A DNA stretch of 57,571 nucleotides from an uncultured Bacilli bacterium (GTDB lineage Bacteria; Bacillota_I; Bacilli_A; RF39; UBA660): contig CAJUNE010000003.1 in assembly GCA_910587745.1 (NCBI GenBank), positions 1-57,571 on the forward strand, written 5' to 3'. A program made the translations under genes and the position numbers. The notes beneath the pieces are model-generated. The model searched no databases. It saw only the letters and a list, made by a program, of their open reading frames with translations, and was not told the origin of the DNA. This document shows positions 6,620-56,608 of this stretch, piece by piece (positions within the stretch are counted from its first letter, which is position 1; each line of letters begins with the position of its first letter).

Positions 6620-6657
6620 AAATATCACTATTTTTAGTATAAACAAAAAAAGAGAAT

Positions 6658-8279: not shown

Positions 8280-8355
8280 CTCCTACTATTATTATATACT
8301 AAAGTTTTTGAAAAATAAAGCAATATATGTTATTATTAATACAAGAGGTGTCAAA

Positions 8356-9297
8356 ATGACTATAGTATTTAAAGTAAGTGATAATATAAAACCTTTAATG
8401 ATAGATTTTTATCAAGACAGAAGCGTTCTCAATCCCCCACCTTATTCTATTTTACAAGTCAAAGATTTTGATTGTGTAACAACTCTTTATGAATCTGGTA
8501 AAGTAATGTTTCAAGGGATTGGTGCTGATATAGAAGCAAGCTATTGGATAGAACAAGAAAGAATTAAAAATAATCGTTTAATTGATACAAATGGTAAAGA
8601 AAAAAGTAAAAAAGATGATAAATTAGAACCTAAAAAAACATTTATTAATACAAGCTCTATAGGATCAGACGAAGTCGGAACAGGAGATTTCTTTGGTCCC
8701 ATTGTTGTTACGGCAACTTATGTATCTAAAGAAAATATTGATTTTTTAATAGATTTAGGTGTTAGAGATTCTAAAAAAATAACCGATGATAAAATCAAAA
8801 AAATAGCACCAGATATCATAAAAAAAATTCCTTATTCTACATTTATTTTAACAAACACTTCATACAACAAAAATTGGAGTGAAGATTTAAACATGAATAA
8901 AATAAAAGCAATTCTTCACAATAAAGTTTTATGTACTATTAAAAATAAAAACTTTGATTATGATAAAATTGTTGTAGACCAATTTGTTTACCCTAAAAAA
9001 TATTACGAACATATCAAAGATGCTAGCGAAAAAGTAACTGACATAACTTTTATGACTAAAGCAGAAGATCAATGTTTATCAGTCGCTGCAGCATCAATAA
9101 TATCCCGTTATATATTTCTAGGAGAAATGAAAAAATTAAGTGAAGAAATGAATATGGAAATTCCAAAAGGTGCTGGTCCTAATGTTGATGAAGTTGGAAT
9201 AAAAATAGCTAAAGAATATGGATTTAATAAATTAAAAGATATTGCAAAATTAAATTTTAAAAACAAAGACAAAATAAAAGCTGGTTTAAAAAATTAA
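8356..9297 (+). CDS. rnhC: Ribonuclease HIII
   Basis: GSDEVGTGDFFGPIVV catalytic motif with an N-terminal RNase HIII-type domain. A strong SD (AGAGGTG) sits before the ATG at 8356. Confidence 0.85.
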   Translation: MTIVFKVSDNIKPLMIDFYQDRSVLNPPPYSILQVKDFDCVTTLYESGKVMFQGIGADIEASYWIEQERIKNNRLIDTNGKEKSKKDDKLEPKKTFINTSSIGSDEVGTGDFFGPIVVTATYVSKENIDFLIDLGVRDSKKITDDKIKKIAPDIIKKIPYSTFILTNTSYNKNWSEDLNMNKIKAILHNKVLCTIKNKNFDYDKIVVDQFVYPKKYYEHIKDASEKVTDITFMTKAEDQCLSVAAASIISRYIFLGEMKKLSEEMNMEIPKGAGPNVDEVGIKIAKEYGFNKLKDIAKLNFKNKDKIKAGLKN

Positions 9298-20193: not shown

Positions 20194-20688
20194 ATGATAA
20201 ACAAACAAAATCTTTGGTTTATAACCCTGTTTTCTCTCATCATGGTATTAAGTATTTATTATTTAACTATGTCTGAGGATACACTATCAACATTAAATGT
20301 AAACAATACAAATAATAATGGCACTGAAGTTGTCATAAGTGAAAATGAGACTTTAGTTGCTTTAAAAGTAGCAGATGAAGAAGCATTAGTATCAAAAATT
20401 GAAGAATTACAAAACGTATTATTAAATAATAGTTCTAGCTTAGAAGAAAAAAATCACGCTTACGACGAATTACAAGAAATAAACAAAAAAGAAAGTACAA
20501 AAGAAACAATAGTAAAGAAAATAAAAGACACTTATAAATTAGATTCATTTGTAAGTATTGAAGAAAATAACATTAAAATAACCATTGCATCTTCTAAGCA
20601 TGATACCAAATTAGCTAATAATATCATTAGAAGTGTCCAAGAACTTTTTAATGAAACCAAATACATAACTGTTAAATTTGGTAGTTAA
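20194..20688 (+). CDS. spoIIIAH: Stage III sporulation protein AH-like
   Basis: The N-terminus KQNLWFITLFSLIMVLSIYYL and the C-terminus IKITIASSKHD...ITVKF parallel B. subtilis SpoIIIAH (KQTVWLLTMLSLVVVLSVYYI ... INITVKSDKHS ... VAVTF). Confidence 0.65.
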   Translation: MINKQNLWFITLFSLIMVLSIYYLTMSEDTLSTLNVNNTNNNGTEVVISENETLVALKVADEEALVSKIEELQNVLLNNSSSLEEKNHAYDELQEINKKESTKETIVKKIKDTYKLDSFVSIEENNIKITIASSKHDTKLANNIIRSVQELFNETKYITVKFGS

Positions 20689-20759
20689 AATTTAACAAAA
20701 ATCATGTGTATCTCATAAAATACATTAGAATGGTATTAAAACAGAAAGGAAAGATACAC

Positions 20760-20966
20760 GTGAAAAGAAGCATTTTAACCAAAAGAGAACATGAAATATT
20801 CACACTTTTAGTTCAAGGCTTATCTACAAAAGAAATATCAAAAAAAATAAAAATAAGTGAAAAAACTGTACGAAATCACATATCAAATACTATGCAAAAA
20901 TTAGAAGTAAAAGGACGTGCTAATGCCGTAGTAGAATTATTAAAGTTAGGTGAAATTTCGTTTTAA
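20760..20966 (+). CDS. gerE: LuxR-type sporulation regulator GerE
   Basis: LTKREHEIFTLLVQGLSTKEISKKIKISEKTVRNHISNTMQKLEVKGRANAVVELLKLGEI is near-collinear with B. subtilis GerE. A GTG at 20760 follows AAAGGAAAG; the track start at 20706 is probably too far upstream. Confidence 0.8.
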   Translation: MKRSILTKREHEIFTLLVQGLSTKEISKKIKISEKTVRNHISNTMQKLEVKGRANAVVELLKLGEISF

Positions 20967-20968
20967 AT

Positions 20969-20991
20969 AAATCTCCAAATGGAGATTTTTT
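20969..20991 (+). terminator. Intrinsic terminator after gerE
   Basis: AAATCTCC-aaat-GGAGATTT followed by a T-run. Confidence 0.7.
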
Positions 20992-21039
20992 AATTCTAAA
21001 ATATTTTTTTAAAACATATTAATTTATTAAGGTGATATT

Positions 21040-21981
21040 ATGCTTAAAAAAAGCGCATTAAGAAGAATACTAACTGCTACTCTAGCTTTAATAATTGCAA
21101 GTATTTTATATTTTTTTCCTAACAATAACACTTTATACAATATCAAACAAAACACTAATTATATAGATATTAATAAAACTCCTATATATTTATTAAATAA
21201 AGAAAATTATCTTATCAGAACCTCTATAGTATCTAGCGATAAAGATGAAATAAATCAAATCAAATATCTCATTTCAAGTTTAACCATCGATAGTGAAAAC
21301 AATGAAAATTTGCCTAAAAATTTTAATCCTATAATTCCTAAAAACACTAAAATTTTATCTTTATCATTAGAAAACAACCTATTAAAAATTAATTTTTCTA
21401 AAGAATTTCTAAATGTTAACAAGGATCAAGAAGAAAAGCTTATTGAAAGTATAATTTACACATTAACTGAAAATAAGAATATCAAAGAGATAATGATTTT
21501 TATTGAAGAAAAAAAACTAGAATACTTACCACAAACAAATATAAAACTGCCAAACACATTAACAAGAGATTTTGGTATAAATAAAATATATGATTTAACA
21601 AATATTAAAAATATATCTAAAACAACAATTTATTATATTGGAAAAGAAGAAGATTTAGTATATTATATCCCTGTTACTAAAATAGATAATAATCAAAATA
21701 ATAAAATTGAAATAATTATTGAAGAATTAAAAAGTTCCCCCACTTATGAAACAAATCTTTTAAGTTATTTAGCATCTTCAGTAAAACTATTAAATTATGA
21801 AACTTTAGAAAACACTATTAACTTAACTTTCAACAATGAAATATTCTCTGATTTTAATAATAACAATATATTAGAAGAAGTAAAATACTCTATTTCATTA
21901 TCTTTAAAAGATTCACTACATGTAGAAGAAGTAAACTTCTTAGTTGATGGAAAAGTTATTAGTACATTTAAAGGAAATTAA
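21040..21981 (+). CDS. GerM-like sporulation/germination protein (two GerMN-like repeats), membrane anchored
   Basis: An N-terminal signal anchor, then two repeats each containing a tL.lnFskef-type segment (LLKINFSKEFLN; INLTFNNEIFSD). The call also rests on its context with gerE and spoIIIAH. Confidence 0.45.
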   Translation: MLKKSALRRILTATLALIIASILYFFPNNNTLYNIKQNTNYIDINKTPIYLLNKENYLIRTSIVSSDKDEINQIKYLISSLTIDSENNENLPKNFNPIIPKNTKILSLSLENNLLKINFSKEFLNVNKDQEEKLIESIIYTLTENKNIKEIMIFIEEKKLEYLPQTNIKLPNTLTRDFGINKIYDLTNIKNISKTTIYYIGKEEDLVYYIPVTKIDNNQNNKIEIIIEELKSSPTYETNLLSYLASSVKLLNYETLENTINLTFNNEIFSDFNNNNILEEVKYSISLSLKDSLHVEEVNFLVDGKVISTFKGN

Positions 21982-33907: not shown

Positions 33908-35659
33908 TTATTCTAGAACAGCCTTTATTCTTCTAACACCAGCACTACTAGCTTCTTCCTTTTTAATTCTAAAAACTCCTAGTACTCCTGTGTGTTCTAC
34001 ATGAGGTCCTCCGCATATTTCTTTTGATACATCACCAATACTATAAACATTAACAATATCAGCATATTTTTCTATAAACATCGCTTCTGCTCCACTATTT
34101 ACAGCATCATTCTTATTCATTGTTTCCATTGTAACTGGTAAATCCTCTTGAATCCATTTATTAACTAGTTCCTCAACTTGTTTTTTCTCTTCATCAGTAA
34201 GTTTATGATCACAAGAAAAGTCAAAGCGCATTCTTTCCTCGGTAATATTACTACCTTTTTGATGAACATTTTTATCAACTACAACTTTTAAAGCGGCATT
34301 AAGTAAATGTGTAGCTGTATGATATTTTGTTTCCATTTCTCCACTACTAGCTAAACCGCCCTTAAATTTACCCGCACTAGCTGTACGCGATAGTTCTTGA
34401 TGAGCCTTAAACTTTTCATAAAAGCCCTGAATATCAACTGTTAAACCCTTTTCTTGAGCCATTTCTTCTGTAAGTTCTATAGGAAAGCCATAAGTATCAT
34501 ATAATCTAAAAGCATTCTCTTTATCAATAATAGAATTATCAATATGACTAATTAATTTATCAAATTCTTTTAATCCTTTTTCCAAAGTACGATTAAACTT
34601 AATACTTTCATTTTTTAATACATCTAAAACAATTTCTTTGTTGTCTTTAATTTCAGAATAATAATCTTCATACTTTGCTATTACTTCTAAAGCTATAGGA
34701 AGAGTCCAGTTTGTATTAGTATCTATTCCTAACTTTTTACCATGTCTAATAGCCCTTCTAATAAGTCTCCGCAAAATATAACCTTGATCTGTATTACTAG
34801 GTTTTATTCCAGCATAATCTGCACTAATAAATACAGCAGTTCTAATATGATCGGCAATTATACGCATGCTAACTTCATTTTCATTATAAGTCTTTTTACT
34901 AACACTTTCTATTGCTTCTATTATTTCTTTCCAAATAGAAGTTTTATAATTATCATCAACATTTTCTAATACAGCAACAACACGTTCTAAGCCCATTCCT
35001 GTATCAACATTTTTCTGTTCAAGTTCTTCAATCGTACCATCAGCATTTTTACGATATTCCATGAAGACATTATTCCAGATTTCTACCCAGCGATCATCTT
35101 TAGGATCAAAAACCTTTGGTATATCCTCATCACTTCTAAAATAGAATATTTCTGTATCTCCACCACAAGGACCAGTATCTCCTGCAATCCAAAAATTATC
35201 TTCCAAACCTAAATAAGCAATTCGCTCTTCTGGGATTCCGAGCTCTCTCCAAATTGTAGCTGCTACTTCATCGCGTGGAATATCATCATTTCCTTCAAAA
35301 ACAGTTACTGCAAGTCTATCAACAGGTATATTCAAAACTTTGGTTAAAAATTCAAAACTATACTCAATACTTTCTTTTTTAAAATAATCTCCTAAACTCC
35401 AATTCCCAAGCATTTCAAAAAAAGTATGATGTGTCTTATCTCCAATTTCCTCTAAATCAGTTAATCTAACGCATTTTTGATAATCGCAAAGTCTTGTTCC
35501 TTCTGGATGTTTTTTGCCAAGTAAGTAAGGAATTAACGGTTGCATTCCTGCAGTATTAAATAAAACAGAAGGATCATTTTCAGGAATTAAAGGAGCACTT
35601 GGTATTTGTATATGTCCATTACTTTTAAAATAATCTATAAATTTATCTTTTAAATTCAT
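33908..35659 (-). CDS. alaS: Alanyl-tRNA synthetase, short form (583 aa: catalytic plus editing domains, no C-Ala domain)
   Basis: QKCVR...HHTFFEMLGNWSLGDYFK (class II core), HTATHLL and CGGPHV (editing-domain zinc motifs). Confidence 0.8.
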   Translation of the reverse strand: MNLKDKFIDYFKSNGHIQIPSAPLIPENDPSVLFNTAGMQPLIPYLLGKKHPEGTRLCDYQKCVRLTDLEEIGDKTHHTFFEMLGNWSLGDYFKKESIEYSFEFLTKVLNIPVDRLAVTVFEGNDDIPRDEVAATIWRELGIPEERIAYLGLEDNFWIAGDTGPCGGDTEIFYFRSDEDIPKVFDPKDDRWVEIWNNVFMEYRKNADGTIEELEQKNVDTGMGLERVVAVLENVDDNYKTSIWKEIIEAIESVSKKTYNENEVSMRIIADHIRTAVFISADYAGIKPSNTDQGYILRRLIRRAIRHGKKLGIDTNTNWTLPIALEVIAKYEDYYSEIKDNKEIVLDVLKNESIKFNRTLEKGLKEFDKLISHIDNSIIDKENAFRLYDTYGFPIELTEEMAQEKGLTVDIQGFYEKFKAHQELSRTASAGKFKGGLASSGEMETKYHTATHLLNAALKVVVDKNVHQKGSNITEERMRFDFSCDHKLTDEEKKQVEELVNKWIQEDLPVTMETMNKNDAVNSGAEAMFIEKYADIVNVYSIGDVSKEICGGPHVEHTGVLGVFRIKKEEASSAGVRRIKAVLE

Positions 35660-36189
35660 TAATTCTCAACTCTTTCTATAAACTCAATAACTCTATTATC
35701 TAAAACATTTATATTATCATTAGTAATTGTAATATCAAAATTTCCATAATTTTCTAAAGCGGTTTCAGTCACATGAGTTTGCTCTTTTAAACTTAGCTCA
35801 CTTTTAGCAAATTGATTTACTACATAAATAGAATATACATTTTTAAAAGTCTTTTTCATTTCTTCAATTTCATCTGGAAATCTTACATCACTAATTATTA
35901 CTACATCATAATATAAAGAATAAACTTTTATATCTTCAATCATTCTATTAACAAGCATTTTAGGCATATCCATATTTTCTCTAATTGTTACACCTAATTC
36001 TTGTAAAAATTTTCTAGGCTTTGGTTCCTCACCATTCCAACCTAATATTTCATTAGCATATAATTTCAAATACTTACTATATTCCGTAATTATAGGTTTC
36101 TTTTTTAGGCTAAGATAATGTTCTCTAATAATCTTAGCAACCTCTCCTTTACCAGAGCCAGCTCTACCTGCTACTAAATACAATTTCAT
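35659..36189 (-). CDS. P-loop nucleotide (dNMP-like) kinase family protein
   Basis: GRAGSGKG Walker A, 176 aa. Its stop overlaps the alaS start (TAATG). Confidence 0.5.
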   Translation of the reverse strand: MKLYLVAGRAGSGKGEVAKIIREHYLSLKKKPIITEYSKYLKLYANEILGWNGEEPKPRKFLQELGVTIRENMDMPKMLVNRMIEDIKVYSLYYDVVIISDVRFPDEIEEMKKTFKNVYSIYVVNQFAKSELSLKEQTHVTETALENYGNFDITITNDNINVLDNRVIEFIERVEN

Positions 36190-36258: not shown

Positions 36259-37044
36259 TTAAGCCAAATGAGGTGCATATCTTTCAATGCTAAATTTTCT
36301 ACATTCAGTTTCTAAACGTTCAAAATAGTAATCCAAATCAATTTTCTTTTCTCTGATTAACTTTAATTCTGCTGTATCTAAAAGTTTAGCAGTATCATTA
36401 GCTCTTATAAAACCATTTAAGTAAATAGCCCAATTTTCCTCAGTGGCTCGAAAAAAGCCATTAATACCTAAATCCATAAAAAAATCTTCATTTCCAAAAC
36501 TAGCTGGACTCATAAAATTTTCTTTAAAATGGTAAATTACTTCTGGAATAAAGCGCGGAACTATTAAAAATTGTCTAAAAGTAGGATCAATGACATAGGC
36601 ATTACCATTAAAGATAGCAACAGCAAAAAAATGTGGAACTAGCTGAAGGCCTAAATTCTTAGTATGGATAATCATTACTTTTATACCCAAACTCTTACAT
36701 ATTTGATATACCATTATAGCTGCATATTTGCACAAATTCAAGCATGGATTTAAGTTAGTATACTCTATAAACCCACGTTCAAATAATTCATTATAAACTT
36801 CATTAACAATGTCACTAAATATAGGAATATTTATACTAAATAATGAATTTAAATCCCAATTAAAAACCCTCTTTTTCATAATACTGTTATCAAATTGTAA
36901 CCATAATATTCTTTTATCAATTTTAGATAATTCTTTTTCCTTTAAAAACAATTTAAGCCATAGTAATCTTATTCTTTCTCTCGCATTAACATCATTACAA
37001 TCAATATTTCCAATATCATTTATTATATCTTGAATTTCATTCAT
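36259..37044 (-). CDS. Hypothetical protein, possible transglutaminase-like cysteine peptidase fold
   Basis: A candidate Cys...His...Asp arrangement (NPCLNLCKYAA; VPHFFAV; YVIDPT). An AAAGGGGGA SD precedes the ATG at 37044. The assignment is weak. Confidence 0.35.
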   Translation of the reverse strand: MNEIQDIINDIGNIDCNDVNARERIRLLWLKLFLKEKELSKIDKRILWLQFDNSIMKKRVFNWDLNSLFSINIPIFSDIVNEVYNELFERGFIEYTNLNPCLNLCKYAAIMVYQICKSLGIKVMIIHTKNLGLQLVPHFFAVAIFNGNAYVIDPTFRQFLIVPRFIPEVIYHFKENFMSPASFGNEDFFMDLGINGFFRATEENWAIYLNGFIRANDTAKLLDTAELKLIREKKIDLDYYFERLETECRKFSIERYAPHLA

Positions 37045-37088
37045 ATTAAATCCCCCTTTCATAAAAAATAAAAGACTCTATAAGAGCC

Positions 37089-37631
37089 TTATTTTAAATT
37101 AGCAAGTAATTCGTCTTTTTTCATTGTAGAATAGCCTTTAACACCTTGTTCTTTAGCTATAGCTTTAAGTTCTGTTAAAGTCATTTCACTATAATCAGTA
37201 GCTTCTACCTTAGAAGCTTCTTTTTTAGTTTCTTTCTTCTCTTCTTTAGATTCTACAGCTTTCTTAACACCTTTACCGTTTAAAGCATTTTTACTAGTTT
37301 CTACTAATTTAGTAAATGCAGCTGGATTTTCAATAGCCATTTCGCTTAACATTTTACGGTTAATTTCGATTCCTGCTTTAGTTAACCCATTCATAAATTT
37401 AGAATAACTAATATCATTCATACGACAAGCTGCATTAATTCTTGTAATCCAAAGTTTACGAAAGTTTCTTTTATTTGCTTTTCTATCACGATAAGCATAT
37501 TCTCCACTATGAAATAATTGCTCTTGAGCAGTTTTATATAATCTATGTTTACTACCAAAGTAACCTTTAGCTTCTTTTAATACTTTTCTTCTTCTGTTTT
37601 TAGAAACAGTTCCACCTTTAACTCTTGTCAT
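37089..37631 (-). CDS. rplT: 50S ribosomal protein L20 with ~60-aa C-terminal extension ending in a Rho_N/SAP-like module
   Basis: The L20 core ([26 protein letters not shown]...) covers about 118 aa. It is followed by a Lys/Glu linker and [36 protein letters not shown]. Confidence 0.95.
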
Positions 37632-37643
37632 GTCTTAAACCTC

Positions 37644-37838
37644 CTATATGAAATCCTTTAATCTCTTAGCTTGCCCATCTGCTAAGACACCTTTATTTCT
37701 TCTTTGACGAACTTGTTTAGCTGAATCTTTATTTGTTTTATGATTTCCATTTCCTTGTTTGTAAGTTAAAGTATTATTTTTTTTCTTCTTTAAAACTTTA
37801 CTACTTGCTTTATGAGTTTTTTGTTTACACTTTGCCAT
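37644..37838 (-). CDS. rpmI: 50S ribosomal protein L35
   Basis: A 64-aa basic protein lying between infC and rplT. Confidence 0.9.
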   Translation of the reverse strand: MAKCKQKTHKASSKVLKKKKNNTLTYKQGNGNHKTNKDSAKQVRQRRNKGVLADGQAKRLKDFI

Positions 37839-37853
37839 TTTTAATTCCTCCTA

Positions 37854-38381
37854 CTATTTTTTTGGTGCGAGTAACATAAACATTTGTCTACCTTCAAGTT
37901 TAGGTTGAGCTTCAATATTAGAAACCTCTTCTAAAGCTCCTGCAAATCTAAGTAAAACATCTTTACCTAATTCTGGTCTTGCCATTTGTCTACCTTTAAA
38001 GCGAATAAATGCTTTAATACGATGTCCTTTCACTAAATAATCTTTAGCATTTCTAACACGAGTATCAAAATCATGTACATCTATAGTTGTTGACAAACGA
38101 TATTCTTTTACTTCTTTGTTTGTTTCTCTTTGCTTTTTTTGTTGTTCTTTTAATTTTTTTTGTCTCTCATAACGGTATTTATTATAATCCATAATTTTAG
38201 CAACAGCCATATTACCATTATCATTCATTAAAACTAAATCTAAACCTGCATATCTTGCGAGTGTTAAAGCATCTTCTAATTTCTTTTGCCCCATTTGTTC
38301 TCCATTCGGACCAATAACCATCATAGACTCTGCTTTAATTTGCTCATTAATCGGTAAATCCTTATTCATATTTGTGTTTAT
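37854..38381 (-). CDS. infC: Translation initiation factor IF-3 (probable non-canonical ATA start)
   Basis: INEQIKAESMMVIGPNGEQ... is the IF3 signature. The SD GGAGGTG (38391-38385) overlaps the first in-frame ATG (38393). It sits 5 nt before the in-frame ATA at 38381 and 17 nt before the next ATG (38369). Confidence 0.85.
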   Translation of the reverse strand: MNTNMNKDLPINEQIKAESMMVIGPNGEQMGQKKLEDALTLARYAGLDLVLMNDNGNMAVAKIMDYNKYRYERQKKLKEQQKKQRETNKEVKEYRLSTTIDVHDFDTRVRNAKDYLVKGHRIKAFIRFKGRQMARPELGKDVLLRFAGALEEVSNIEAQPKLEGRQMFMLLAPKK

Positions 38382-38393
38382 TTGCACCTCCAT

Positions 38394-38516
38394 AATTAAA
38401 AAGGTAGAATATTCCTATTCCACCTAAAAGACATATTATAAACTTCATAACTGGCCTTTTACCTATGAACTCATATTCATCAGGTGGAATAAAATTCGCT
38501 TTCCTTCTTAAATTTC
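38394..38516 (-). promoter_or_regulatory. L20-type ribosomal leader (transcription attenuator) upstream of infC-rpmI-rplT
   Basis: The terminator GGTGGAATA-ggaa-TATTCTACC plus TTTTT lies at 38403-38424. An upstream ATTCCACCT (38490-38482) can pair with AGGTGGAAT (38425-38417), which would form an antiterminator. Confidence 0.6.
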
Positions 38517-48040: not shown

Positions 48041-48064
48041 AAAAAACTAGTTTAAAACTAGTTT
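48041..48064 (-). terminator. Intrinsic terminator overlapping the tsf stop codon
   Basis: The minus strand forms AAACTAG-ttttaaa-CTAGTTT followed by TTTTTTC. Confidence 0.55.
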
Positions 48065-48936
48065 CCATTAATTTGATTCATTACTTCTTCAGCAAAGTTT
48101 TCACATCTTTTTTCCATGCCTTCGCCTACTTCATAACGTACCATAGAAATAAGCTCACCACCATTATTTTTAACATAAGTAGCAACACTTATATCTCCAT
48201 CTTTAATAAATGCTTGTTCTGCAAGGCAAATTTCTTTAAAGTATTTCTTAATTCTGCCTTCAACCATTTTTTCAGCAATATCAGCAGGTTTGCCTTCAGA
48301 CATTGCAATTTCTTTTTGAACTTCACGTTCTCTATTCACAACATCTTCAGGCACCTCACTTTCAAATACATAAAGTGGTTTCATAGCAGCTGCTTGCATT
48401 GCAACATCTTTAGCAACATCTGAATTAGCATTCTTAACAACTGTTAAAACAGCAATTTTACCACCCATATGTAGGTAAGCCCCAAAATTTTCGTCATCAT
48501 TTTTTTCTACAACTTCAATTCTTCTTAAAGATAATTTTTCACCGATTTTAGCAGTCTTAGCAACAATTAAATCAGCAATAGTTCCTTCTTCACAAGATAG
48601 TTTTAAAGCTTCTTCTAAAGTATTAATTGTGCTATTTAAAATAGTATTACCAATTGTATCTATCATTCCAGTAAACTCTTCATTCTTACTAACAAAATCA
48701 GTTTCACTATTTACTTCTAATATAATAGCACGATTACCATTTACATATATATTAGCTAAGCCTTCAGCAGCAATACGTGAAGCTTTCTTTTCACTTTTTG
48801 CAATACCTTTTTCACGAAGCCAATCAATAGCTTCTTCCATATTTCCATTAGTTTCTGCAAGAGCTTTCTTACAATCCATCATTCCAGCACCAGTTTTTTC
48901 ACGTAAATCTTTTACCATACTTGCTGTAACTTCCAT
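48058..48936 (-). CDS. tsf: Elongation factor Ts
   Basis: VKDLREKTGAGMMDCKKALAETNGNMEEAIDWLREKG. Confidence 0.95.
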   Translation of the reverse strand: MEVTASMVKDLREKTGAGMMDCKKALAETNGNMEEAIDWLREKGIAKSEKKASRIAAEGLANIYVNGNRAIILEVNSETDFVSKNEEFTGMIDTIGNTILNSTINTLEEALKLSCEEGTIADLIVAKTAKIGEKLSLRRIEVVEKNDDENFGAYLHMGGKIAVLTVVKNANSDVAKDVAMQAAAMKPLYVFESEVPEDVVNREREVQKEIAMSEGKPADIAEKMVEGRIKKYFKEICLAEQAFIKDGDISVATYVKNNGGELISMVRYEVGEGMEKRCENFAEEVMNQINGN

Positions 48937-49006: not shown

Positions 49007-49951
49007 TTATTTTAAATTTTCAATTAATTCATCTTTTTTCATAGTTGAATAACCTTTAACACCTTTTTCTTTAGCAATAGCTTTAAGTTCTGTTAAAGTC
49101 ATTTCACTATAATCTGTAGTTTTTTCTTCTTTTACTTCTTTTTTTGTTTCATTCTTTTCTACATTTTTTTCATTCTTAGGAGCTTTTTCTTCAGTCTTAA
49201 CTAAATCTTCCATAGTTTTAGACTCTACTTTAGCTTTTTTATCTTCTTCAGTAACGTAATCAACCATTTCTAAATTACGTGCTTCACAAATAGCATTATT
49301 AAGTACTCCAAGTAATACTTTAACACTTCTAACAGCATCATCATTACCAGGAATTACAAAATCAACATCATCTGGATCACAATTAGTATCTACAATACCA
49401 AATACTGGAATACGAAGTTTACGAGCTTCTCTAATTGCATTAATTTCTTTTTTAGGATCAACAATAATTAAAGCATTAGGTAATTTATTCATATCACGGA
49501 TACCAGCTAAAATTTTATTTAATTTTTCATATTCTTTTTTTAGTCCAATAACTTCTTTTTTAGGTAAAAGATCAAATTTACCTTCTTTTTCCATATTTTC
49601 GATTTCTTCTAATCTTCTAATTCTTCTTCTAATAGTTCTAAAATTAGTTAAAGTTCCTCCTAACCAGCGTTCAGTAACATAATAAGAATTACTACGATTA
49701 GCTTCTTCTTGAGAAACTTCTTGAGCTTGTTTCTTAGTTCCAACAAATAAGAAAGTTCCTCCATTATCAGCGATAGCTTTTACTTGAGTGTAAGCTTCCT
49801 CTAATTTTTTTGTAGTTTTTTCTAGGTCGATAATATAAATATCTTCTCTAGTTCCAAAAATGTATTCTTTCATCTTTGGATTCCATCTTTTAGTTTGATG
49901 TCCAAAATGAACACCTGCTTCTAATAAATAACTCATAGAAACAACTGACAT
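49007..49951 (-). CDS. rpsB: 30S ribosomal protein S2 with ~80-aa C-terminal extension ending in a Rho_N/SAP-like module
   Basis: The S2 core ([19 protein letters not shown]...) is followed by a Lys/Glu-rich linker and [36 protein letters not shown]. Confidence 0.95.
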
Positions 49952-50115
49952 ATAAATCATCCATCCTTTCGTTTTTACCTCTTTTTGCTTTCAAACATTT
50001 AACTCCACCACTCTTCGCGGCACTAGGACTTAAACTAAACAAAAATGTGTATTTGCAATTTATTTGCCGATATTATTATATTATAAAGTATATGAAAAAA
50101 CAAGTAAAACTTAAC

Positions 50116-51027
50116 TTAATTCCCAAGTTTTTCCACATTTCTTTCAAATAATTTTTTCCATTCTTCCAAACTTTCCAAATCTTTTTCAGCAATTAAATAT
50201 TTTTTAACTGCTTTTTGTAGCTTTAATATATCTTTTTTAGCTTTTAAAATATGAATTTTTCTATGACAGTTAGGACACAAAGCAACTGTATTATAGAGCG
50301 CATCAGGGCCATCATTAGCAAGATTAATTATATGATGTTCCTCTAAAAAAGGATAACCATTTTTATCATTAAATGGTGCTTCATTCTTACATAAATCACA
50401 TTTCCCATTAGCTCTATATTTAGTATATTCAGCGATATATAAATCCCTACTTCTTTTAATAACTTCTCCGCTCTTACTAACAGGTTTAATTTTAGATGCA
50501 TTCTTAGCTCTTAATTTTAATTCATGAACTGGCAATTTTCTTACTTTTTTTATTTTTTCTTCCATACTCAATTCTACATCTTTATCTAAAACTGTTAAAT
50601 TAACTGAATTATTTAAACGCTTTAAAGGAAATTTAAAAACACGTCGCAAATCACCATTTTTATCTAACTCATCCATTTCAAGCACATTACCTGCAACTTC
50701 TACTTCACCAGCATAATAATATTCATCAGACTTATAAGACTCAAATAAATAAACATTAATATTTTTTTCTTTAGAATAGAGCAACGTCTTATTTTGAGAA
50801 AAATTTATATTTTGATCGCCAACCATTCCCATACCTGTATAATAAAGTATTCCATTATTATCCCAAACATCATCATAAAGACTATTATTATGCTTTGCAA
50901 TAAGTATTAATGAATTTGTTTTTAAAGATCTTCTCATCCCACCTTGATTAGAACATTTAAAAACAGTACTTATATCATTATTTGAATATTTATTTCCTAT
51001 TACTAATTTATTATTTATTTTTGTCAT
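50116..51027 (-). CDS. Putative modification-dependent (Type IV) restriction endonuclease: SRA/YDG-like PUA-fold reader fused to an HNH nuclease
   Basis: The N-terminal half has QGGMRRS...LYDDVWDNNGILYYTGMGMVGDQ...NKTL (SRA/YDG-like). The C-terminal half has CDLC...EEHHIINLANDGPD...NTVALCPNCHRKIH (HNH with a CxxC zinc pair). Confidence 0.6.
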   Translation of the reverse strand: MTKINNKLVIGNKYSNNDISTVFKCSNQGGMRRSLKTNSLILIAKHNNSLYDDVWDNNGILYYTGMGMVGDQNINFSQNKTLLYSKEKNINVYLFESYKSDEYYYAGEVEVAGNVLEMDELDKNGDLRRVFKFPLKRLNNSVNLTVLDKDVELSMEEKIKKVRKLPVHELKLRAKNASKIKPVSKSGEVIKRSRDLYIAEYTKYRANGKCDLCKNEAPFNDKNGYPFLEEHHIINLANDGPDALYNTVALCPNCHRKIHILKAKKDILKLQKAVKKYLIAEKDLESLEEWKKLFERNVEKLGN

Positions 51028-53061: not shown

Positions 53062-54495
53062 ATGGAAAATAAAATCGTCAAAAGAATCCAAGAAGAATTC
53101 AAAAAAAATCCTGATTTAACTACTAAAAAAATAAAATTATCTCTACTTGATACTGTATATGTAATTTATTTAGAAACTATTAGTTCCAGTGATAAAGTAA
53201 ATGATTATATCTTAAAAAATTTAAGTAATTTAAGTGGCTTAAAAAGTAAAAAAATAAGAAACTTAGATTCTATATTACCCGGTCCTAATACCAAAGAAAT
53301 TAAAAACTATGATGAGATAGAATTTTACATAACTAATGGATTTACTATTGTAGTAAGAAATAATACGATTCTTGCCATTGAAACCAAAGCTGATATTAAT
53401 CGAAGTGTTGCTGAACCTAATAGTGAACCAGCTACTAATGGACCCAAAGACGCTTTTACAGAAAATTATCAAATTAATTTAGGTTTAATAAAAAGAAGAA
53501 TTAAATCTCATACTTTAAAAACTGATGAGTATATTGTTGGACGTAAAACAAGCACTAAAGTTGGCGTTTTATATTTTGATGATATTGCAGATTTAGAACA
53601 AGTTGAATTAATCAAAAAGAAAATATCTAAAATAGATATTGATGGCATAATTGATACAGCTTCTTTAGGTCAATTAATAACAGATGAATTTATTACCCAC
53701 TTTCCTACTTATATGATGACAGAAAGACCCGATAATGTTTCTCGTGCCCTACTTGAAGGTAAAATTGCTATTACAGTTGATACTTCACCTTATGTTATAA
53801 TACTACCCGCCTTTCTAGCAGACTTTATTAATCCAGGAGTAGATCAGTATAATAAAAACAAAAATGTTAACTTTATTAAAATACTTCGCTTTGTTTGTTT
53901 CTTTTTATCAATGATAGCGCCTGCCGTTTATATTGCTCTTACAAATTATAATCAAGAAACTATTCCAACAGACCTTTTAGTTAGTTTTGCTGTTCAAAGA
54001 GATGGTGTCCCCTTTCCGGCAATAGTTGAAGCTTTTATGATGCTCTTTATATGTGAGATGTTACGAGAAAGTGACCTTAGATTCCCTAACTCGTATGGTA
54101 GTGCCATTTCTATTTTAGGTGCTTTAGTCTTAGGAGATGCAGCTGTTTCTGCAGGAATAGTTAGTCAAATTATGATTATAGTTATTGCTCTAACATTTAT
54201 ATCCAGTTTAATATTTACTGAAGTAGAACTAGTAAGTGCCTTAAGACATTTAAGATTTATCTTTCTAATTTTAGCATCATTCTATGGCATTATGGGTATA
54301 GTCTTTGGTTTATTCTATTTTCTTATTAGAATTAATGATACTTACTCCTTTGGTAAACCTTACTTCTATCCGATTGTTCCTTTTGATAAAACATACATCT
54401 TTAAAACTTTACTTAAATCTCGTGCTAAAAAAGATACTAAACGTAGTAAATTGCTTACTAAGAAAAACTTTACAAGACAAGGAGAAAACGCATGA
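53062..54495 (+). CDS. Spore germination protein, GerA/GerKA family (A subunit)
   Basis: GerA-family length and architecture, with a C-terminal TM bundle and the ...EMLRESDLRFPN... region. It is the first gene of an A-C-B operon. Confidence 0.85.
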   Translation: MENKIVKRIQEEFKKNPDLTTKKIKLSLLDTVYVIYLETISSSDKVNDYILKNLSNLSGLKSKKIRNLDSILPGPNTKEIKNYDEIEFYITNGFTIVVRNNTILAIETKADINRSVAEPNSEPATNGPKDAFTENYQINLGLIKRRIKSHTLKTDEYIVGRKTSTKVGVLYFDDIADLEQVELIKKKISKIDIDGIIDTASLGQLITDEFITHFPTYMMTERPDNVSRALLEGKIAITVDTSPYVIILPAFLADFINPGVDQYNKNKNVNFIKILRFVCFFLSMIAPAVYIALTNYNQETIPTDLLVSFAVQRDGVPFPAIVEAFMMLFICEMLRESDLRFPNSYGSAISILGALVLGDAAVSAGIVSQIMIIVIALTFISSLIFTEVELVSALRHLRFIFLILASFYGIMGIVFGLFYFLIRINDTYSFGKPYFYPIVPFDKTYIFKTLLKSRAKKDTKRSKLLTKKNFTRQGENA

Positions 54496-55580
54496 AGAAA
54501 CTATTAATATTATTAATTATTCCTTTCATTTTAAGTGGCTGTTATGACTATAATGAGCTTAATGATTTAGCTATCGTCTCAGGTATTGGTATTGATTATG
54601 AAAATGAAGAATATATAGTTACTTATGAAATATTAAGTACTAAAAAAGAAGGAGAAACCTCAGCCTCCTCTAGTACTTATAACGTTACAAGTCGTGGTAA
54701 AACAGTAGTTGAAGCTTTTAGTAATAATGGTAATTTAATGGATAAAGTACCCTACTTTGAACATGTAGATGTAGTTGTTATAAGTGAAGATATAGCTAAA
54801 AACAATTTAAAAGAAGTTGGCGAATATATTATTAGAACATCTAAACTTCGAAACGAAAGTTTTCTAGCTATTGCTACTAATTCCAGTGCTAAAGATGTTA
54901 TAGAAGCTAAAACCAAGGAAAAACCTGTTGCCTCAAGTTTTATAATGAATTTACTCGAAAATAATAAAAATAGTGCTAGTGCTGGTTACTTTATGCCATA
55001 TACAGAAATATTAAATAGTATTCTAACAAATGGTGAAGATGCTATTTTATCAGCAGTTACTGTAAAAAAAAATGGTGAAGAAAAAAATATTGAATTAGTA
55101 GGTCTAGGTGTCTTTGAAGATTTTAAATTAAAACATATTTTTGATACCAAGGAAGCAGCCATTTTAAATGTCTTAAATAATTTTGATGCTGAAACAGTAT
55201 TCTTTGAAAAGAAATGTAACAATGGTGTTATAGTAGTATCCATTTATGAATCAAGTATCAAAATAGAACCTAATAATGAAAATGTTAAAATAAGCGGCAA
55301 ATTAAATGTTCGAATTAATGAGGACACTTGTAATGATAATTTAAGAGATGAAAAAGTCTATGAAAAACTCCAAAAAGAATTTACTAAAATAGTTGAAGAT
55401 AAAATGCTTAATGTTTTAGAAACTCTTCAAACAGAAAAATCAAATGCTCTTAAAATTGGTAAATCTTATTATGATAAATATCGTAAACCAGAATACAAAT
55501 TATGGACTAACCAAAGATTTGTCTTCGATTTAGATTTAAAAATAAATAAGAAAGGATTAATATTTGAGGTGAAAAAATGA
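54492..55580 (+). CDS. Spore germination lipoprotein, Ger(x)C family
   Basis: Lipobox LSGC followed by YDYNELNDLAIVSGIGIDY. It overlaps the A gene by ATGA. Confidence 0.85.
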   Translation: MKKLLILLIIPFILSGCYDYNELNDLAIVSGIGIDYENEEYIVTYEILSTKKEGETSASSSTYNVTSRGKTVVEAFSNNGNLMDKVPYFEHVDVVVISEDIAKNNLKEVGEYIIRTSKLRNESFLAIATNSSAKDVIEAKTKEKPVASSFIMNLLENNKNSASAGYFMPYTEILNSILTNGEDAILSAVTVKKNGEEKNIELVGLGVFEDFKLKHIFDTKEAAILNVLNNFDAETVFFEKKCNNGVIVVSIYESSIKIEPNNENVKISGKLNVRINEDTCNDNLRDEKVYEKLQKEFTKIVEDKMLNVLETLQTEKSNALKIGKSYYDKYRKPEYKLWTNQRFVFDLDLKINKKGLIFEVKK

Positions 55581-56608
55581 AAGAAAAACCATTTATCATA
55601 TATTTTTTAACCCAAAGTTTATTCTTAGGTTTTGGTATCTCTATTTTATTTAGTATTTCCAGTAAAGATTGTTATATAGGAGCTCTTTTAGGATTATTAA
55701 TTGGTTTTGTTATAATCTACTTATATTCTAAATTTTTAGAATTAAAAAAGAAAAGAACTCTTAAAGAAATACTAAAACAAAATAAAATTCTCGGCATATT
55801 TGTTTATCTTCTAATTATTATAGCTTCTTATATTTTACTAATCTATTCTCTAGTTATATATAAAGTATTCGTAGCTAGTTTTATGTTAATTAAAACCCCA
55901 GAAATTCTTCTACTCATACCTATTGTTATATTTGGAACTTATGGTGCATTTAAAGGATTAACAGTTATAAATCGTGTAGCAGAATCCTTAATACCTCTAG
56001 CTTTAGGTTTAGCAGCCTTTGCTTTTCTAGGGGTTGTTGGTTTATTTGACACATCTAATTTTCTTCCAATTTTAACTACTACTCCATCTAACTTTTTTAA
56101 AACAGCCATAACTTTCGCTGGCATAAGTACATTTCCTAATTTACTTACTATTCATTATCAAGAAAAACCAAAATATATGCTAACTACTTATTCCCTAACT
56201 TGTTTACTGATAATCGGTACTATCATTTATATAAATGGTATTCTAGGCGAAGAACTAGTTCACATCTATCGTTTCCCAGAATATATGGTTTTAAAACAAT
56301 TAAAACTATTCCAATTTATTGAAAAAGTTGAAAACATTTTATCAATCGCATGGATATTTAACATTTTTATTCTTTTAATGACATCTATTCATTCAATTAA
56401 AGAATTATTGCCTAATAAAAAACCTAAAATAATAACAGTCATAATTCTAATATTAACCTTATATATGATAGACAAAGTATTCGCTTTTAATTATGTTAAT
56501 GAACTTCGTATTTATAAATTATTACCATATATAAGTATAATTATTCCTTTAATAATTATTATACCTTTATTATATTTAGCTAAAAAAAAGAAAAGTAATC
56601 ATAACTAG
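55577..56608 (+). CDS. Spore germination permease, GerAB/GerKB family (B subunit)
   Basis: A ~10-TM APC-like protein that overlaps the C gene by ATGA. Confidence 0.8.
   Translation: MKEKPFIIYFLTQSLFLGFGISILFSISSKDCYIGALLGLLIGFVIIYLYSKFLELKKKRTLKEILKQNKILGIFVYLLIIIASYILLIYSLVIYKVFVASFMLIKTPEILLLIPIVIFGTYGAFKGLTVINRVAESLIPLALGLAAFAFLGVVGLFDTSNFLPILTTTPSNFFKTAITFAGISTFPNLLTIHYQEKPKYMLTTYSLTCLLIIGTIIYINGILGEELVHIYRFPEYMVLKQLKLFQFIEKVENILSIAWIFNIFILLMTSIHSIKELLPNKKPKIITVIILILTLYMIDKVFAFNYVNELRIYKLLPYISIIIPLIIIIPLLYLAKKKKSNHN

What the first reader, a model, noticed from the sequence alone, without database searches (positions are those of the whole stretch)
37089..37277. Ribosomal protein L20 carries a Rho_N/SAP-like C-terminal domain
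L20 is normally ~118 aa. Here the conserved core is followed by a ~25-aa Lys/Glu-rich linker and then ...[36 protein letters not shown]. This tail fits the helix-extended-helix pattern of the Rho termination factor N-terminal domain (Rho_N, SAP-like: mTl-ELk-iAKe-gi-gys-mkKdELi--l). The same module is appended to S2 (see 49007-49250). Thus one large-subunit and one small-subunit protein carry an identical extra nucleic-acid or protein-docking module on flexible linkers.
Basis: partly seen in the sequence, partly recalled or inferred. Interest (0 to 1): 0.65.

Follow-up and report, generated by a model that had tools for sequence, protein, structure and literature searches.

The report
Ribosomal proteins L20 and S2 with Rho-type tails
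In a group of uncultured, small-genome gut bacteria, ribosomal proteins L20 (large subunit) and S2 (small subunit) each end in the same conserved 36-residue helix-loop-helix domain, of the kind found at the start of the termination factor Rho, and it probably acts as an extra RNA- or DNA-binding arm on the ribosome surface.

Summary
rplT (37089-37631, minus strand) encodes a 180-aa bL20. It has a normal core (residues 1-118), a 27-residue Lys/Glu-rich linker predicted to be disordered, and a 36-residue module. That module passes Pfam's Rho_N threshold (42 bits against 24.9). rpsB (49007-49960) ends in the same module: 33 of 36 residues match, and the DNA is about 91% identical.

Both fusions are widespread. 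All 80 related species genomes and all 120 best database hits for each protein keep them. The module is under purifying selection (dN/dS 0.33, against 0.85 for the linker) and is transcribed with the operon in mouse-gut metatranscriptomes. Within a genome, the L20 and S2 modules resemble each other more than they resemble their orthologues (11 genomes, p about 0.004), so they evolve in concert.

The module also occurs on bL21 in Flavobacteriia-like contigs, on true Rho, and on some membrane-anchored and chaperone proteins. From general knowledge of 50S structures, bL21 is the neighbour of bL20.

The most likely function is a tethered helix-extended-helix nucleic-acid-binding arm. This is inferred from Rho and from plant RHON1, and was not shown here. 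I could not test whether the genome has Rho. I found no paper describing these fusions. This is a new variant of a known kind, of moderate interest.

The parts
37089..37631 (-). rplT, encoding the 180-aa bL20-Rho_N fusion protein (stop codon 37089-37091)
   Evidence: ORF. Pfam Ribosomal_L20 plus Rho_N. The same architecture occurs in all 120 best database hits and in 80 of 80 species loci.
37278..37631 (-). bL20 core, residues 1-118
   Evidence: Matches solved bL20 chains end to end, residues 1-117/118, with E down to 5e-46. AF2 pLDDT is 76-94 over most of it. dN/dS is 0.18.
37200..37277 (-). Lys/Glu-rich flexible linker, residues 119-144
   Evidence: AF2 pLDDT 33-43 with no secondary structure. 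Across 81 orthologues it is 11-43 aa long, with K 32%, E 22% and V 13%, and dN/dS 0.85.
37092..37199 (-). Rho_N / helix-extended-helix module of bL20, residues 145-180
   Evidence: Pfam Rho_N 42-44 bits. The module-only AF2 model has pLDDT 89.6 with helices at 8-18 and 28-35. It superposes on the Rho N-terminal domain 1a8v with TM 0.80 and rmsd 1.1 A. dN/dS is 0.33, and L155, K171 and K172 are invariant in 81 sequences.
37072..37090 (-). Intrinsic-terminator-like hairpin directly after the rplT stop codon
   Evidence: Pattern scan. Metatranscriptome contig depth falls from about 17-45 to 0-2.5 below about 37100.
37644..37838 (-). rpmI (bL35), same operon
   Evidence: 64-aa ORF between infC and rplT. 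The equivalent gene in L161 carries a weak Ribosomal_L35p hit. It is covered by the same RNA contigs.
37854..38393 (-). infC (IF3), first gene of the operon
   Evidence: ORF. The equivalent gene in L161 carries IF3_N and IF3_C. The RNA contigs run 37167-38505.
38390..38507 (-). Probable L20 leader (attenuator) upstream of infC, below the Rfam threshold
   Evidence: Rfam RF00558 matched over its full length at 30.2 bits (gathering 58.7), E 4e-4 in a local search. There is a terminator-like hairpin at 38425-38402 and a promoter-like site at 38551-38523 (11 of 12 positions matched). The RNA contigs begin near 38505.
49007..49960 (-). rpsB, encoding the uS2-Rho_N fusion. It is 317 aa from the first ATG; the database gene call is 314 aa, which would start at 49951.
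   Evidence: ORF. Pfam Ribosomal_S2 plus Rho_N. All 120 best hits carry PF07498 plus PF00318. S2 ends in the module in 5 of 5 related loci where it is in range.
49118..49243 (-). Lys/Glu-rich linker of uS2 (approximate bounds)
   Evidence: The sequence [47 protein letters not shown] has 13 K+R and 14 D+E. It has no DNA similarity to the L20 linker.
49010..49117 (-). Rho_N / HeH module of uS2
   Evidence: Pfam Rho_N at 41.6-46.7 bits. It shares 33 of 36 residues and about 91% of its DNA with the L20 module. Its transcript shows up as a second contig that joins at the shared module.

Best explanation
What is shown. In this mouse-gut, low-GC (26%), spore-forming, small-genome member of the Bacilli, and in at least 80 related species, bL20 and uS2 are each made as one polypeptide. 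Each consists of the normal ribosomal core, a disordered Lys/Glu-rich linker, and a 36-residue helix-extended-helix domain of the Rho_N family.

What is inferred.
- The cores assemble normally, which leaves one module tethered on the solvent side of the 50S subunit and one on the solvent side of the 30S subunit.
- The tethers are about 27 residues (L20) and about 45 residues (S2) long.
- The modules act as accessory, low-specificity nucleic-acid-binding arms, most likely for single-stranded RNA such as nascent rRNA during assembly, or mRNA. The N-terminal helix bundle of Rho and the C-terminal Rho-N motif of plant RHON1 work in this way.
- Contact would be made through the conserved basic loop and helix start, KGYS-x-MKK. 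This aligns with the R(M/L)RK block of Rho.
- Because the two modules stay alike within each genome, they probably recognise the same ligand.
For: Identity of the module:
- Pfam Rho_N is above threshold on both proteins.
- A module profile hits solved Rho N-termini at E 3.9e-6 and 6e-4. TMKK aligns with GMRK and RMKK.
- A true Rho aligns with the tails.
- The module-only model shows a helix-extended-helix fold at pLDDT 89.6. Its best structural matches are Rho 1a8v and the Tho1 and Hcc-1 SAP domains, with TM 0.73-0.80.

The tail is real, translated sequence under selection:
- A single ORF in 80 of 80 species loci.
- All 120 best hits for each protein carry the fusion.
- dN/dS is 0.33 for the module, 0.85 for the linker and 0.18 for the core. 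K171, K172 and L155 are invariant.
- RNA contigs cover the tail contiguously with the core and stop at the terminator.

Shared function of the two modules:
- Within-genome L20-to-S2 identity is 0.789 (DNA) and 0.763 (protein). Orthologue identity is 0.760 and 0.722. Permutation p is 0.004 and 0.001. Paralogues within a genome are the closer pair in 38 genome pairs, against 14 where orthologues are closer.

Nucleic-acid binding:
- The 40 C-terminal residues of RHON1 (its Rho-N motif) bind RNA, including pieces of 16S and 23S rRNA, in gel shifts (PMC3458557).
- The Rho helix bundle is proposed to bind the RNA backbone, and deleting the first 27 residues of E. coli Rho abolishes RNA binding (PMC11347177).
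- Among the 149 best module-bearing cluster representatives, partner domains include HMG box, SSB and helicase.

A recurring site on the ribosome:
- The same module is fused to bL21 in Flavobacteriia-like contigs. From general knowledge of 50S structures, bL21 is the neighbour of bL20.
Against: - No binding was measured, and no ligand was identified.
- The module is not basic overall: pI 6.0, with 6 K+R against 6 D+E.
- Some helix-extended-helix domains bind proteins rather than nucleic acids. The LEM domain is an example (general knowledge).
- The Foldseek E-values are not significant, because the domain has only 36 residues.
- Transcription is shown, but translation of the tail and its retention on assembled ribosomes are not.
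- The concerted-evolution signal rests on 11 genomes, three of which are close relatives. It could reflect gene conversion rather than a shared ligand. Synonymous-codon identity is only slightly raised, 0.74 against 0.69.
Confidence: 0.55

Rival explanations
1. The module is a protein-docking domain. Both tails would recruit the same protein partner to the ribosome, or bind each other. Candidate partners include RNA polymerase, NusA or NusG (for transcription-translation coupling), a hibernation or assembly factor, and the membrane-anchored or stand-alone Rho_N proteins found in related organisms.
For: - The module is charge-neutral, with pI 6.0.
- Co-variation of the two modules within genomes is stronger at the protein level than at synonymous sites. 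That is what co-evolution with one partner would produce.
- The same module sits on a thioredoxin-like membrane protein, an FKBP chaperone and small stand-alone or TM-anchored proteins. These could be partners or competitors.
- From general knowledge, LEM-type helix-extended-helix domains bind proteins, and Rho N-terminal domains contact RNA polymerase and NusA in pre-termination complexes.
Against: - No partner was identified.
- The most conserved surface residues are lysines (K156, K160, K165, K171, K172) in the block that corresponds to the basic R(M/L)RK block of Rho.
- The only isolated Rho-N motif tested experimentally binds RNA.
Confidence: 0.25
2. The tails mainly serve autoregulation. 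bL20 and uS2 are both autogenous repressors that bind their own mRNA leaders. An extra RNA-binding module would strengthen or alter that off-ribosome mRNA binding rather than act on the ribosome.
For: - Both carriers are known autogenous repressors in model bacteria (review PMC10931766).
- An L20-leader-like element with an attenuator hairpin lies upstream of infC in this window.
Against: - bL21 carries the same module in Flavobacteriia-like contigs and, as far as I know, is not an autogenous repressor.
- The two modules are nearly identical, although the L20 and S2 operators are unrelated RNAs.
- The leader match is below the Rfam threshold (30.2 bits against 58.7).
Confidence: 0.1
3. The extension is an artefact or neutral baggage. 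It could be an assembly or annotation error, a read-through after loss of a stop codon, or a tail that is cleaved off and has no function.
For: - Metagenome assemblies do break and misjoin at this repeat, and the databases hold chimeric or duplicated versions such as P0010 and P0147.
- No proteomic evidence was available.
Against: - The single ORF is found in 80 independent species genomes and in many independent assemblies.
- The module is under purifying selection (dN/dS 0.33), while the linker drifts.
- Transcripts are contiguous.
- The predicted fold is confident.
Confidence: 0.03

Closest known systems
N-terminal helix bundle of transcription termination factor Rho (Pfam Rho_N, PF07498; for example E. 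coli 1A8V/1PV4 and M. tuberculosis 7OQH)
   Same: The same sequence family and the same helix-extended-helix fold. The conserved L-x-E-L-K...G-[VI]-K-G-x-S-x-M-K-K-x-E-L pattern aligns with the Rho R(M/L)RK block.
   Different: Here the domain is C-terminal, on a long disordered linker. It is attached to ribosomal proteins. The Rho OB-fold RNA-binding domain and the ATPase are absent. It is not a Rho factor.
Arabidopsis RHON1 C-terminal Rho-N motif (PMC3458557)
   Same: A Rho_N motif of about 40 residues that has been moved to the C-terminus of an unrelated protein. It binds RNA on its own, including 16S and 23S rRNA fragments. The authors note that the motif has been recruited to the C-termini of diverse proteins.
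   Different: RHON1 is a plant chloroplast RNase E cofactor, not a ribosomal protein. No sequence comparison with RHON1 was run here.
SAP / HeH / LEM domains (Pfam clan CL0306)
   Same: The same two-helix fold. The SAP domains of Tho1 and Hcc-1 are among the best structural matches. Of the 149 closest module-bearing representatives, 62 also hit SAP.
   Different: The window's modules score below the SAP gathering threshold (15-20 bits against 23.9). Classical SAP domains are eukaryotic DNA- or chromatin-binding modules.
bL21-Rho_N fusions in Flavobacteriia-like metagenome contigs
   Same: The same design: ribosomal core, a low-complexity linker (Ala/Lys/Pro-rich), and a C-terminal Rho_N module (35-40 bits). 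The carrier protein contacts bL20 on the 50S subunit (the contact is general knowledge).
   Different: A different phylum, a different carrier protein and a different linker composition. F. johnsoniae bL21 in the solved ribosome 7JIL has a 147-aa form, and its aligned portion shows no module.
Lineage-specific extensions of ribosomal proteins in general (for example the Bacteroidetes bS6 C-terminal helix, PMC7797042, and the histone-H1-like tail of mosquito RPS6, PMC548281)
   Same: Clade-restricted C-terminal additions to otherwise universal ribosomal proteins.
   Different: Those are single-protein extensions, mostly short helices or low-complexity tails. Here one autonomous folded domain is added to one protein of each subunit and is kept alike in both.

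Membership tests
Pfam Rho_N (PF07498), the Rho N-terminal helix-extended-helix domain | Profile score at or above the curated gathering threshold (24.9 bits) | tested here: met
   L20 scores 42.2 bits and S2 41.6 bits. The tails alone score 43.6 and 46.7 bits.
Pfam Rho_N (PF07498), the Rho N-terminal helix-extended-helix domain | Detectable homology to the N-terminus of true Rho proteins | tested here: met
   The module profile hits Rho 7oqh residues 60-89 (E 3.9e-6) and 8hsj residues 24-51 (E 6e-4). A metagenomic Rho with Rho_RNA_bind and ATPase domains aligns its residues 2-35 with the L20 tails.
Pfam Rho_N (PF07498), the Rho N-terminal helix-extended-helix domain | Helix, extended loop, helix fold | tested here: met
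   The AF2 module model has pLDDT 89.6 with helices at 8-18 and 28-35. Its top Foldseek match is the Rho N-terminal domain 1a8v, TM 0.80 and rmsd 1.1 A over 34 residues. The E-value (1.8) is not significant because the domain is so short.
Pfam Rho_N (PF07498), the Rho N-terminal helix-extended-helix domain | Binds RNA or other nucleic acid | not testable with these tools
   This rests only on analogy with Rho and RHON1.
Transcription termination factor Rho | Rho_RNA_bind OB fold plus a RecA-type ATPase domain | tested here: not met
   Neither domain is present on L20 or S2. No Rho gene was found among the window's larger ORFs. Whether the rest of the genome has one is unknown.
SAP domain (PF02037) | Profile score at or above the gathering threshold (23.9 bits) | tested here: not met
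   The scores are 15.1-19.7 bits. It belongs to the same clan, not the same family.
Ribosomal protein bL20 (PF00453) | Full-length match to the bL20 profile and to solved bL20 chains, in the infC-rpmI-rplT gene context | tested here: met
   156.9 bits over profile positions 1-107 of 107. It matches S. aureus and B. subtilis bL20 over residues 1-117/118. The gene order is shown, and the operon transcript.
Ribosomal protein uS2 (PF00318) | Full-length match to the uS2 profile, in the rpsB-tsf gene context | tested here: met
   323.7 bits over profile positions 1-215 of 216. The ORF directly downstream (48058-48936) reads as EF-Ts by inspection of its sequence. It was not scanned against Pfam.

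The most novel reading that the evidence does not exclude
The paired, co-evolving helix-extended-helix arms on one 50S protein and one 30S protein form a lineage-wide ribosome-tethering system. Both subunits would be held to one shared ligand: nascent or messenger RNA, nucleoid DNA, or a membrane-anchored Rho_N partner. This could compensate for factors that reduced genomes often lack, such as bS1-like mRNA capture or Rho-linked coupling. The same solution arose independently on bL21, next to bL20, in Flavobacteriia. That would define a general class of ribosome-surface helix-extended-helix arms.
Probability: 0.2. Interest if true: 0.75.

Novelty: new variant of a known kind. Interest (0 to 1): 0.52.

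Why it matters
Bacterial ribosomal proteins rarely gain autonomous folded domains. Here one known nucleic-acid-binding fold has been added to a protein of each subunit and kept across at least 80 species. It is held under purifying selection and kept alike in both copies.

If the arms bind RNA or DNA, these ribosomes carry built-in tethers. Such tethers could affect mRNA capture, ribosome assembly, transcription-translation coupling or ribosome localisation. The organisms concerned are abundant but uncultured gut bacteria with reduced genomes.

The bL21 fusions in Flavobacteriia-like contigs point to a possible way of testing the idea, if a cultivable species carries the fusion.

There is also a practical point. 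The shared repeat breaks metagenome assemblies and produces chimeric or fragmentary protein records and misleading annotations, such as 31-aa 'Rho termination factor N-terminal domain-containing' proteins.

Tried and rejected
1. A tail-only search of the 5.8-billion-protein index (the first attempt was too short) returned only 24 short proteins. Most are fragments of L20 or S2 tails, so it could not serve as a survey of architectures.

2. An exhaustive representative search with the module profile gave 3969 clusters at E<=1e-3. The top of the list is dominated by multi-copy tandem proteins of unknown origin. The close '[11 protein letters not shown]' subset (40 of 149) is mostly L20 or S2 fragments, or probable assembly chimeras. 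I therefore did not count these as independent carriers.

3. Literature searches found no description of ribosomal protein plus Rho_N fusions. The one paper that surveyed PF07498 genome-wide (PMC11347177) puts its 'Rho-like' single-domain sequences in supplements that are not held.

4. Rho presence could not be tested. The window has no Rho among its larger ORFs. A Rho query against the 1.24 Mb of related loci hit only the tails. Those loci are L20 neighbourhoods, so this says nothing about the rest of the genome.

5. A gene-conversion test at synonymous sites gave only a weak excess, 0.74 against 0.69. Conversion is neither shown nor excluded.

6. Rfam at gathering thresholds found no L20 leader. 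Only a permissive local search gave a sub-threshold, full-length match.

7. An internal start at the module's Met150 was considered and rejected. That position is M in 34, K in 32 and L in 14 of 81 orthologues.

8. P0010 (293 aa) and P0147 (524 aa) looked like longer variants. They are internal duplications of the core, that is, assembly artefacts.

9. NCBI taxonomy gave no placement for the named relatives, and the Gilroy paper text that is held did not contain the name. The order (RF39, RFN20 or ML615J-28) is left open.

Full report
**Observation.** The minus-strand ORF 37089..37631 encodes a 180-aa protein. Pfam places Ribosomal_L20 at residues 3-109 (E 2e-46) and Rho_N (PF07498) at residues 147-178, with 42.2 bits against a gathering threshold of 24.9. 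The 62-residue tail that corresponds exactly to the reported coordinates scores 43.6 bits on its own. Every solved bacterial bL20 chain listed is 112-129 aa long and matches only residues 1-118 of this protein, so the last 62 residues or so are extra sequence.

S2 (49007..49960) likewise has Ribosomal_S2 at residues 12-226 and Rho_N at residues 284-316, at 41.6 bits. The two modules share 33 of 36 residues. Their last 111 nt are about 91% identical, and the linkers upstream are unrelated. A six-frame profile scan finds just these two copies in the 57.5-kb window. SAP itself scores below its threshold (15-20 bits against 23.9), so the precise label is Rho_N, which belongs to the same HeH clan as SAP.

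**Anatomy.** AlphaFold2 with 27 orthologues models the L20 core confidently. It leaves residues 121-145 disordered (pLDDT 33-43) and folds the tail into two helices. The module modelled alone reaches pLDDT 89.6, with helices at 8-18 and 28-35 separated by an extended loop. Its best PDB matches are the N-terminal domain of E. coli Rho (1a8v; TM 0.80, rmsd 1.1 A over 34 residues) and the SAP domains of Tho1 and Hcc-1. Foldseek E-values are not significant for so short a domain.

A sequence profile of the module hits solved Rho proteins directly: 7oqh residues 60-89 (E 3.9e-6) and 8hsj (E 6e-4). The invariant TMKK of the module aligns with GMRK and RMKK in Rho. A true metagenomic Rho, with Rho_RNA_bind and ATPase domains, aligns its residues 2-35 with the L20 tails.

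**Gene context.** The gene lies in a canonical infC-rpmI-rplT operon. The operon has these features:
- a promoter-like site at 38551-38523;
- a full-length but sub-threshold L20_leader match at 38390-38507 (30.2 bits against 58.7, E 4e-4);
- an attenuator-like hairpin at 38425-38402;
- an intrinsic-terminator-like hairpin at 37090-37072, directly after the stop codon.

Assembled contigs from four mouse-gut RNA-seq and metatranscriptome runs cover about 37100-38505 continuously, tail included. Depth is close to zero on both sides. The S2 tail transcript appears as a second contig that joins at the shared module. The tail is therefore transcribed as part of rplT. Translation is inferred, not shown.

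**Organism and distribution.** The window has 26% GC and carries sporulation and germination genes: SpoIID, GerA, Gpr, a SpoIIIAH-like protein and a protein with the Germane (sporulation and spore germination) domain. Its closest relatives are MAGs labelled 'Bacilli bacterium', 'uncultured Tenericutes', 'Mycoplasma sp. CAG:776', 'Clostridium sp. CAG:609/524' and 'Candidatus Ventrenecus avicola'. They come from mouse, rabbit, human, goat and chicken guts. This fits the group of uncultured small-genome orders RF39, RFN20 and ML615J-28 described in PMC10868615. I could not fix the order.

All 120 best database hits to L20, down to 73% identity, carry PF07498 plus PF00453. All 120 best hits to S2 carry PF07498 plus PF00318. 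All 80 GTDB-species loci keep core, linker and module in one ORF. S2 ends in the module in every locus where it is in range.

**Selection.** Nei-Gojobori estimates over 81 orthologues give dN/dS 0.18 for the core, 0.85 for the linker and 0.33 for the module. Synonymous divergence is similar in all three (dS about 0.8). Linker length varies from 11 to 43 residues, but its composition is kept at K 32%, E 22% and V 13%. In the module, L155, K171 and K172 are invariant, and K156, A159, K160, G166 and M170 nearly so. This is the signature of a folded, functional domain on a spacer constrained only in composition. It rules out read-through junk and assembly error.

**Concerted evolution.** In 11 genomes where both genes could be read, the L20 and S2 modules of one genome are more alike than orthologous modules of different genomes. 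Within-genome identity is 0.789 (DNA) and 0.763 (protein). Orthologue identity is 0.760 and 0.722, and cross-genome paralogue identity is 0.748 and 0.703. Permutation p is 0.004 and 0.001. Within-genome paralogues are the closer pair in 38 of 55 genome pairs, and orthologues in 14. Identity at synonymous codons is only slightly raised, 0.74 against 0.69. I cannot tell gene conversion from selection for a common ligand. Three of the 11 genomes are close relatives, so the p-values are somewhat optimistic. Either way, the two modules are being kept the same, which suggests they do the same job.

**Other carriers.** In a DNA run that holds this organism at about 9x depth, only the L20 and S2 copies are present at 80% nucleotide identity or more. 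The assembly graph breaks at the shared repeat. A metagenome scan with the module profile returned 79 loci with these carriers:
- S2: 36.
- L20: 26.
- bL21 plus Rho_N: 11. Pfam shows Ribosomal_L21p plus Rho_N at 35-40 bits. The cores are about 85% identical to Flavobacterium johnsoniae bL21, so these carriers are Flavobacteriia-like.
- True Rho: 3.
- Single cases: a thioredoxin-like membrane protein with a cytoplasmic linker and module, and an FKBP-type isomerase with an adjacent small module protein.
- The remaining hits are short fragments.

A stand-alone 66-aa protein made of an acidic linker plus the module also exists in a related low-GC contig. An exhaustive search of 1.84 billion cluster representatives found 3969 clusters at E<=1e-3. 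The 149 best all pass Rho_N, and 62 of them also hit SAP. Their partner domains include HMG box, SSB, helicase and protein kinase. The module is therefore a promiscuous, mobile helix-extended-helix unit. What is specific to this clade is that it sits on bL20 and uS2 at the same time. The bL21 case is notable because, from general knowledge of 50S structures and of the assembly map, bL21 sits next to bL20 and depends on it. An independent lineage has thus placed the same module at about the same spot on the 50S surface.

**Mechanism.** Three things are shown:
- The tail is a real, selected and transcribed Rho_N-family domain, joined by disordered linkers to one protein of each subunit.
- The two copies co-vary within genomes.
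- The same module recurs on bL21, on Rho and on other proteins.

Three things are inferred:
- The cores assemble normally, so the modules hang from the solvent faces of the 50S and 30S subunits. [quoted passage not shown]
- The modules bind nucleic acid with low specificity.
- Both bind the same ligand.

The basis for RNA binding is analogy. The Rho helix bundle is proposed to bind the RNA backbone, and deleting the first 27 residues of E. coli Rho abolishes RNA binding (PMC11347177). The last 40 residues of Arabidopsis RHON1, a C-terminal Rho-N motif, bind RNA in gel shifts, including 16S and 23S rRNA pieces (PMC3458557). The best-conserved surface residues here are lysines in the block equivalent to R(M/L)RK in Rho. 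Against this, the module is charge-neutral overall, with pI 6.0, and some helix-extended-helix domains bind proteins.

I put about 0.55 on the tethered nucleic-acid-binding arm. Protein docking gets about 0.25, a mainly autoregulatory role about 0.1, and artefact or neutral baggage about 0.03.

**What could not be settled.** I could not determine whether the genome encodes Rho or bS1, or how many other proteins of this genome carry diverged copies of the module. I also could not show that the tails survive on mature ribosomes. The window holds no Rho among its larger ORFs. Rho is absent from Mycoplasmatota and from 30% of the Bacillota species surveyed (PMC11347177), but that survey did not cover these uncultured orders.

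**Novelty.** The architecture is implicit in databases, since precomputed Pfam hits record it. One MAG's gene table lists a 31-aa 'Rho termination factor N-terminal domain-containing protein' inside what is in fact an intact L20 gene. I found no paper in the searchable library that describes ribosomal protein plus Rho_N fusions. I rate this a new variant of a known kind: a lineage-specific ribosomal-protein extension built from a known domain. What is unusual is that the same folded domain sits on both subunits, that the two copies evolve in concert, and that there is a parallel on bL21. Interest is about 0.5.

Noticed in passing
L116:9611-10111, L138:3818-4372, L128:9578-10114 (also L131, L135, L140, L141, L149, L154, L155, L159): Ribosomal protein bL21 carries a C-terminal Ala/Lys/Pro-rich linker and a Rho_N module (35-40 bits). 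The contigs come from aquatic or marine metagenomes, with 30-43% GC. The cores are about 85% identical to Flavobacterium johnsoniae bL21. That protein's solved-ribosome form (7jil_R) is 147 aa, and its aligned portion shows no module.
   Followed up: partly
window 38390-38507 (-): A full-length but sub-threshold match to the Rfam L20 leader lies upstream of infC (RF00558, 30.2 bits against gathering 58.7, E 4e-4). An attenuator-like hairpin sits at 38425-38402 and a promoter-like site at 38551-38523. L20 autoregulation by attenuation is probably retained. The default Rfam scan missed it.
   Followed up: partly
window 37159-37201 and 49077-49119; runs X15-X19: The near-identical L20 and S2 modules act as a short genomic repeat. 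Logan contigs end or fork there. Public protein sets hold fragments, internal duplications (P0010, P0147) and probable chimeras (P0341, P0372, P0371) that derive from this repeat.
   Followed up: partly
L161:1042-1584 (NCBI GCA_026338125.1, contig JAPKXG010000005.1): The gene table lists only a 31-aa 'Rho termination factor N-terminal domain-containing protein' after infC and rpmI. The DNA nevertheless encodes an intact 180-aa L20-Rho_N in one frame. This looks like an annotation or indexing problem caused by the unusual architecture.
   Followed up: yes
L160:3001-3201: A stand-alone 66-aa ORF consisting of an acidic linker plus the Rho_N module. It sits after a 333-nt intergenic gap in a low-GC contig. 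Free mini-proteins made of the module may therefore exist in related organisms.
   Followed up: partly
L084:395-1204 and L157:7648-8193, 8204-8422: The module is also fused to two other proteins. One is a signal-peptide, thioredoxin-like (CxxC) protein that continues with a TM helix and a cytoplasmic acidic linker (29% GC contig). The other is an FKBP-type prolyl isomerase, with a second small module protein immediately downstream.
   Followed up: partly
P0131 (77 aa, 618-nt contig): This protein starts like the N-terminal UBA-like domain of EF-Ts and ends in the Rho_N module. It is either a real small fusion or a misassembly near the rpsB-tsf junction.
   Followed up: no
window 50116-51027 (-): A 303-aa protein directly upstream of rpsB has an HNH endonuclease domain and a weak SAD/SRA-like (modified-cytosine-binding) N-terminal region. 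It resembles a modification-dependent restriction enzyme.
   Followed up: no
window 33908-35659 (-): The alanyl-tRNA synthetase is only 583 aa (tRNA-synt_2c plus tRNA_SAD). It is far shorter than the usual bacterial enzyme of about 870 aa (general knowledge) and appears to lack the C-terminal domain.
   Followed up: no
window 36259-37062 (-) and 35659-36189 (-): The 267-aa ORF just downstream of rplT has no Pfam match and only trace RNA coverage. The next ORF resembles a phage-type deoxynucleotide monophosphate kinase (DNMK, 33.6 bits).
   Followed up: no
window 4482-6646, 20194-21981, 53062-56608: The window holds several sporulation and germination genes: SpoIID, germination protease Gpr, a SpoIIIAH-like protein, a protein with the Germane (sporulation and spore germination) domain, and GerA with two downstream ORFs that were not scanned. 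This small-genome, 26% GC organism is predicted to form spores.
   Followed up: partly
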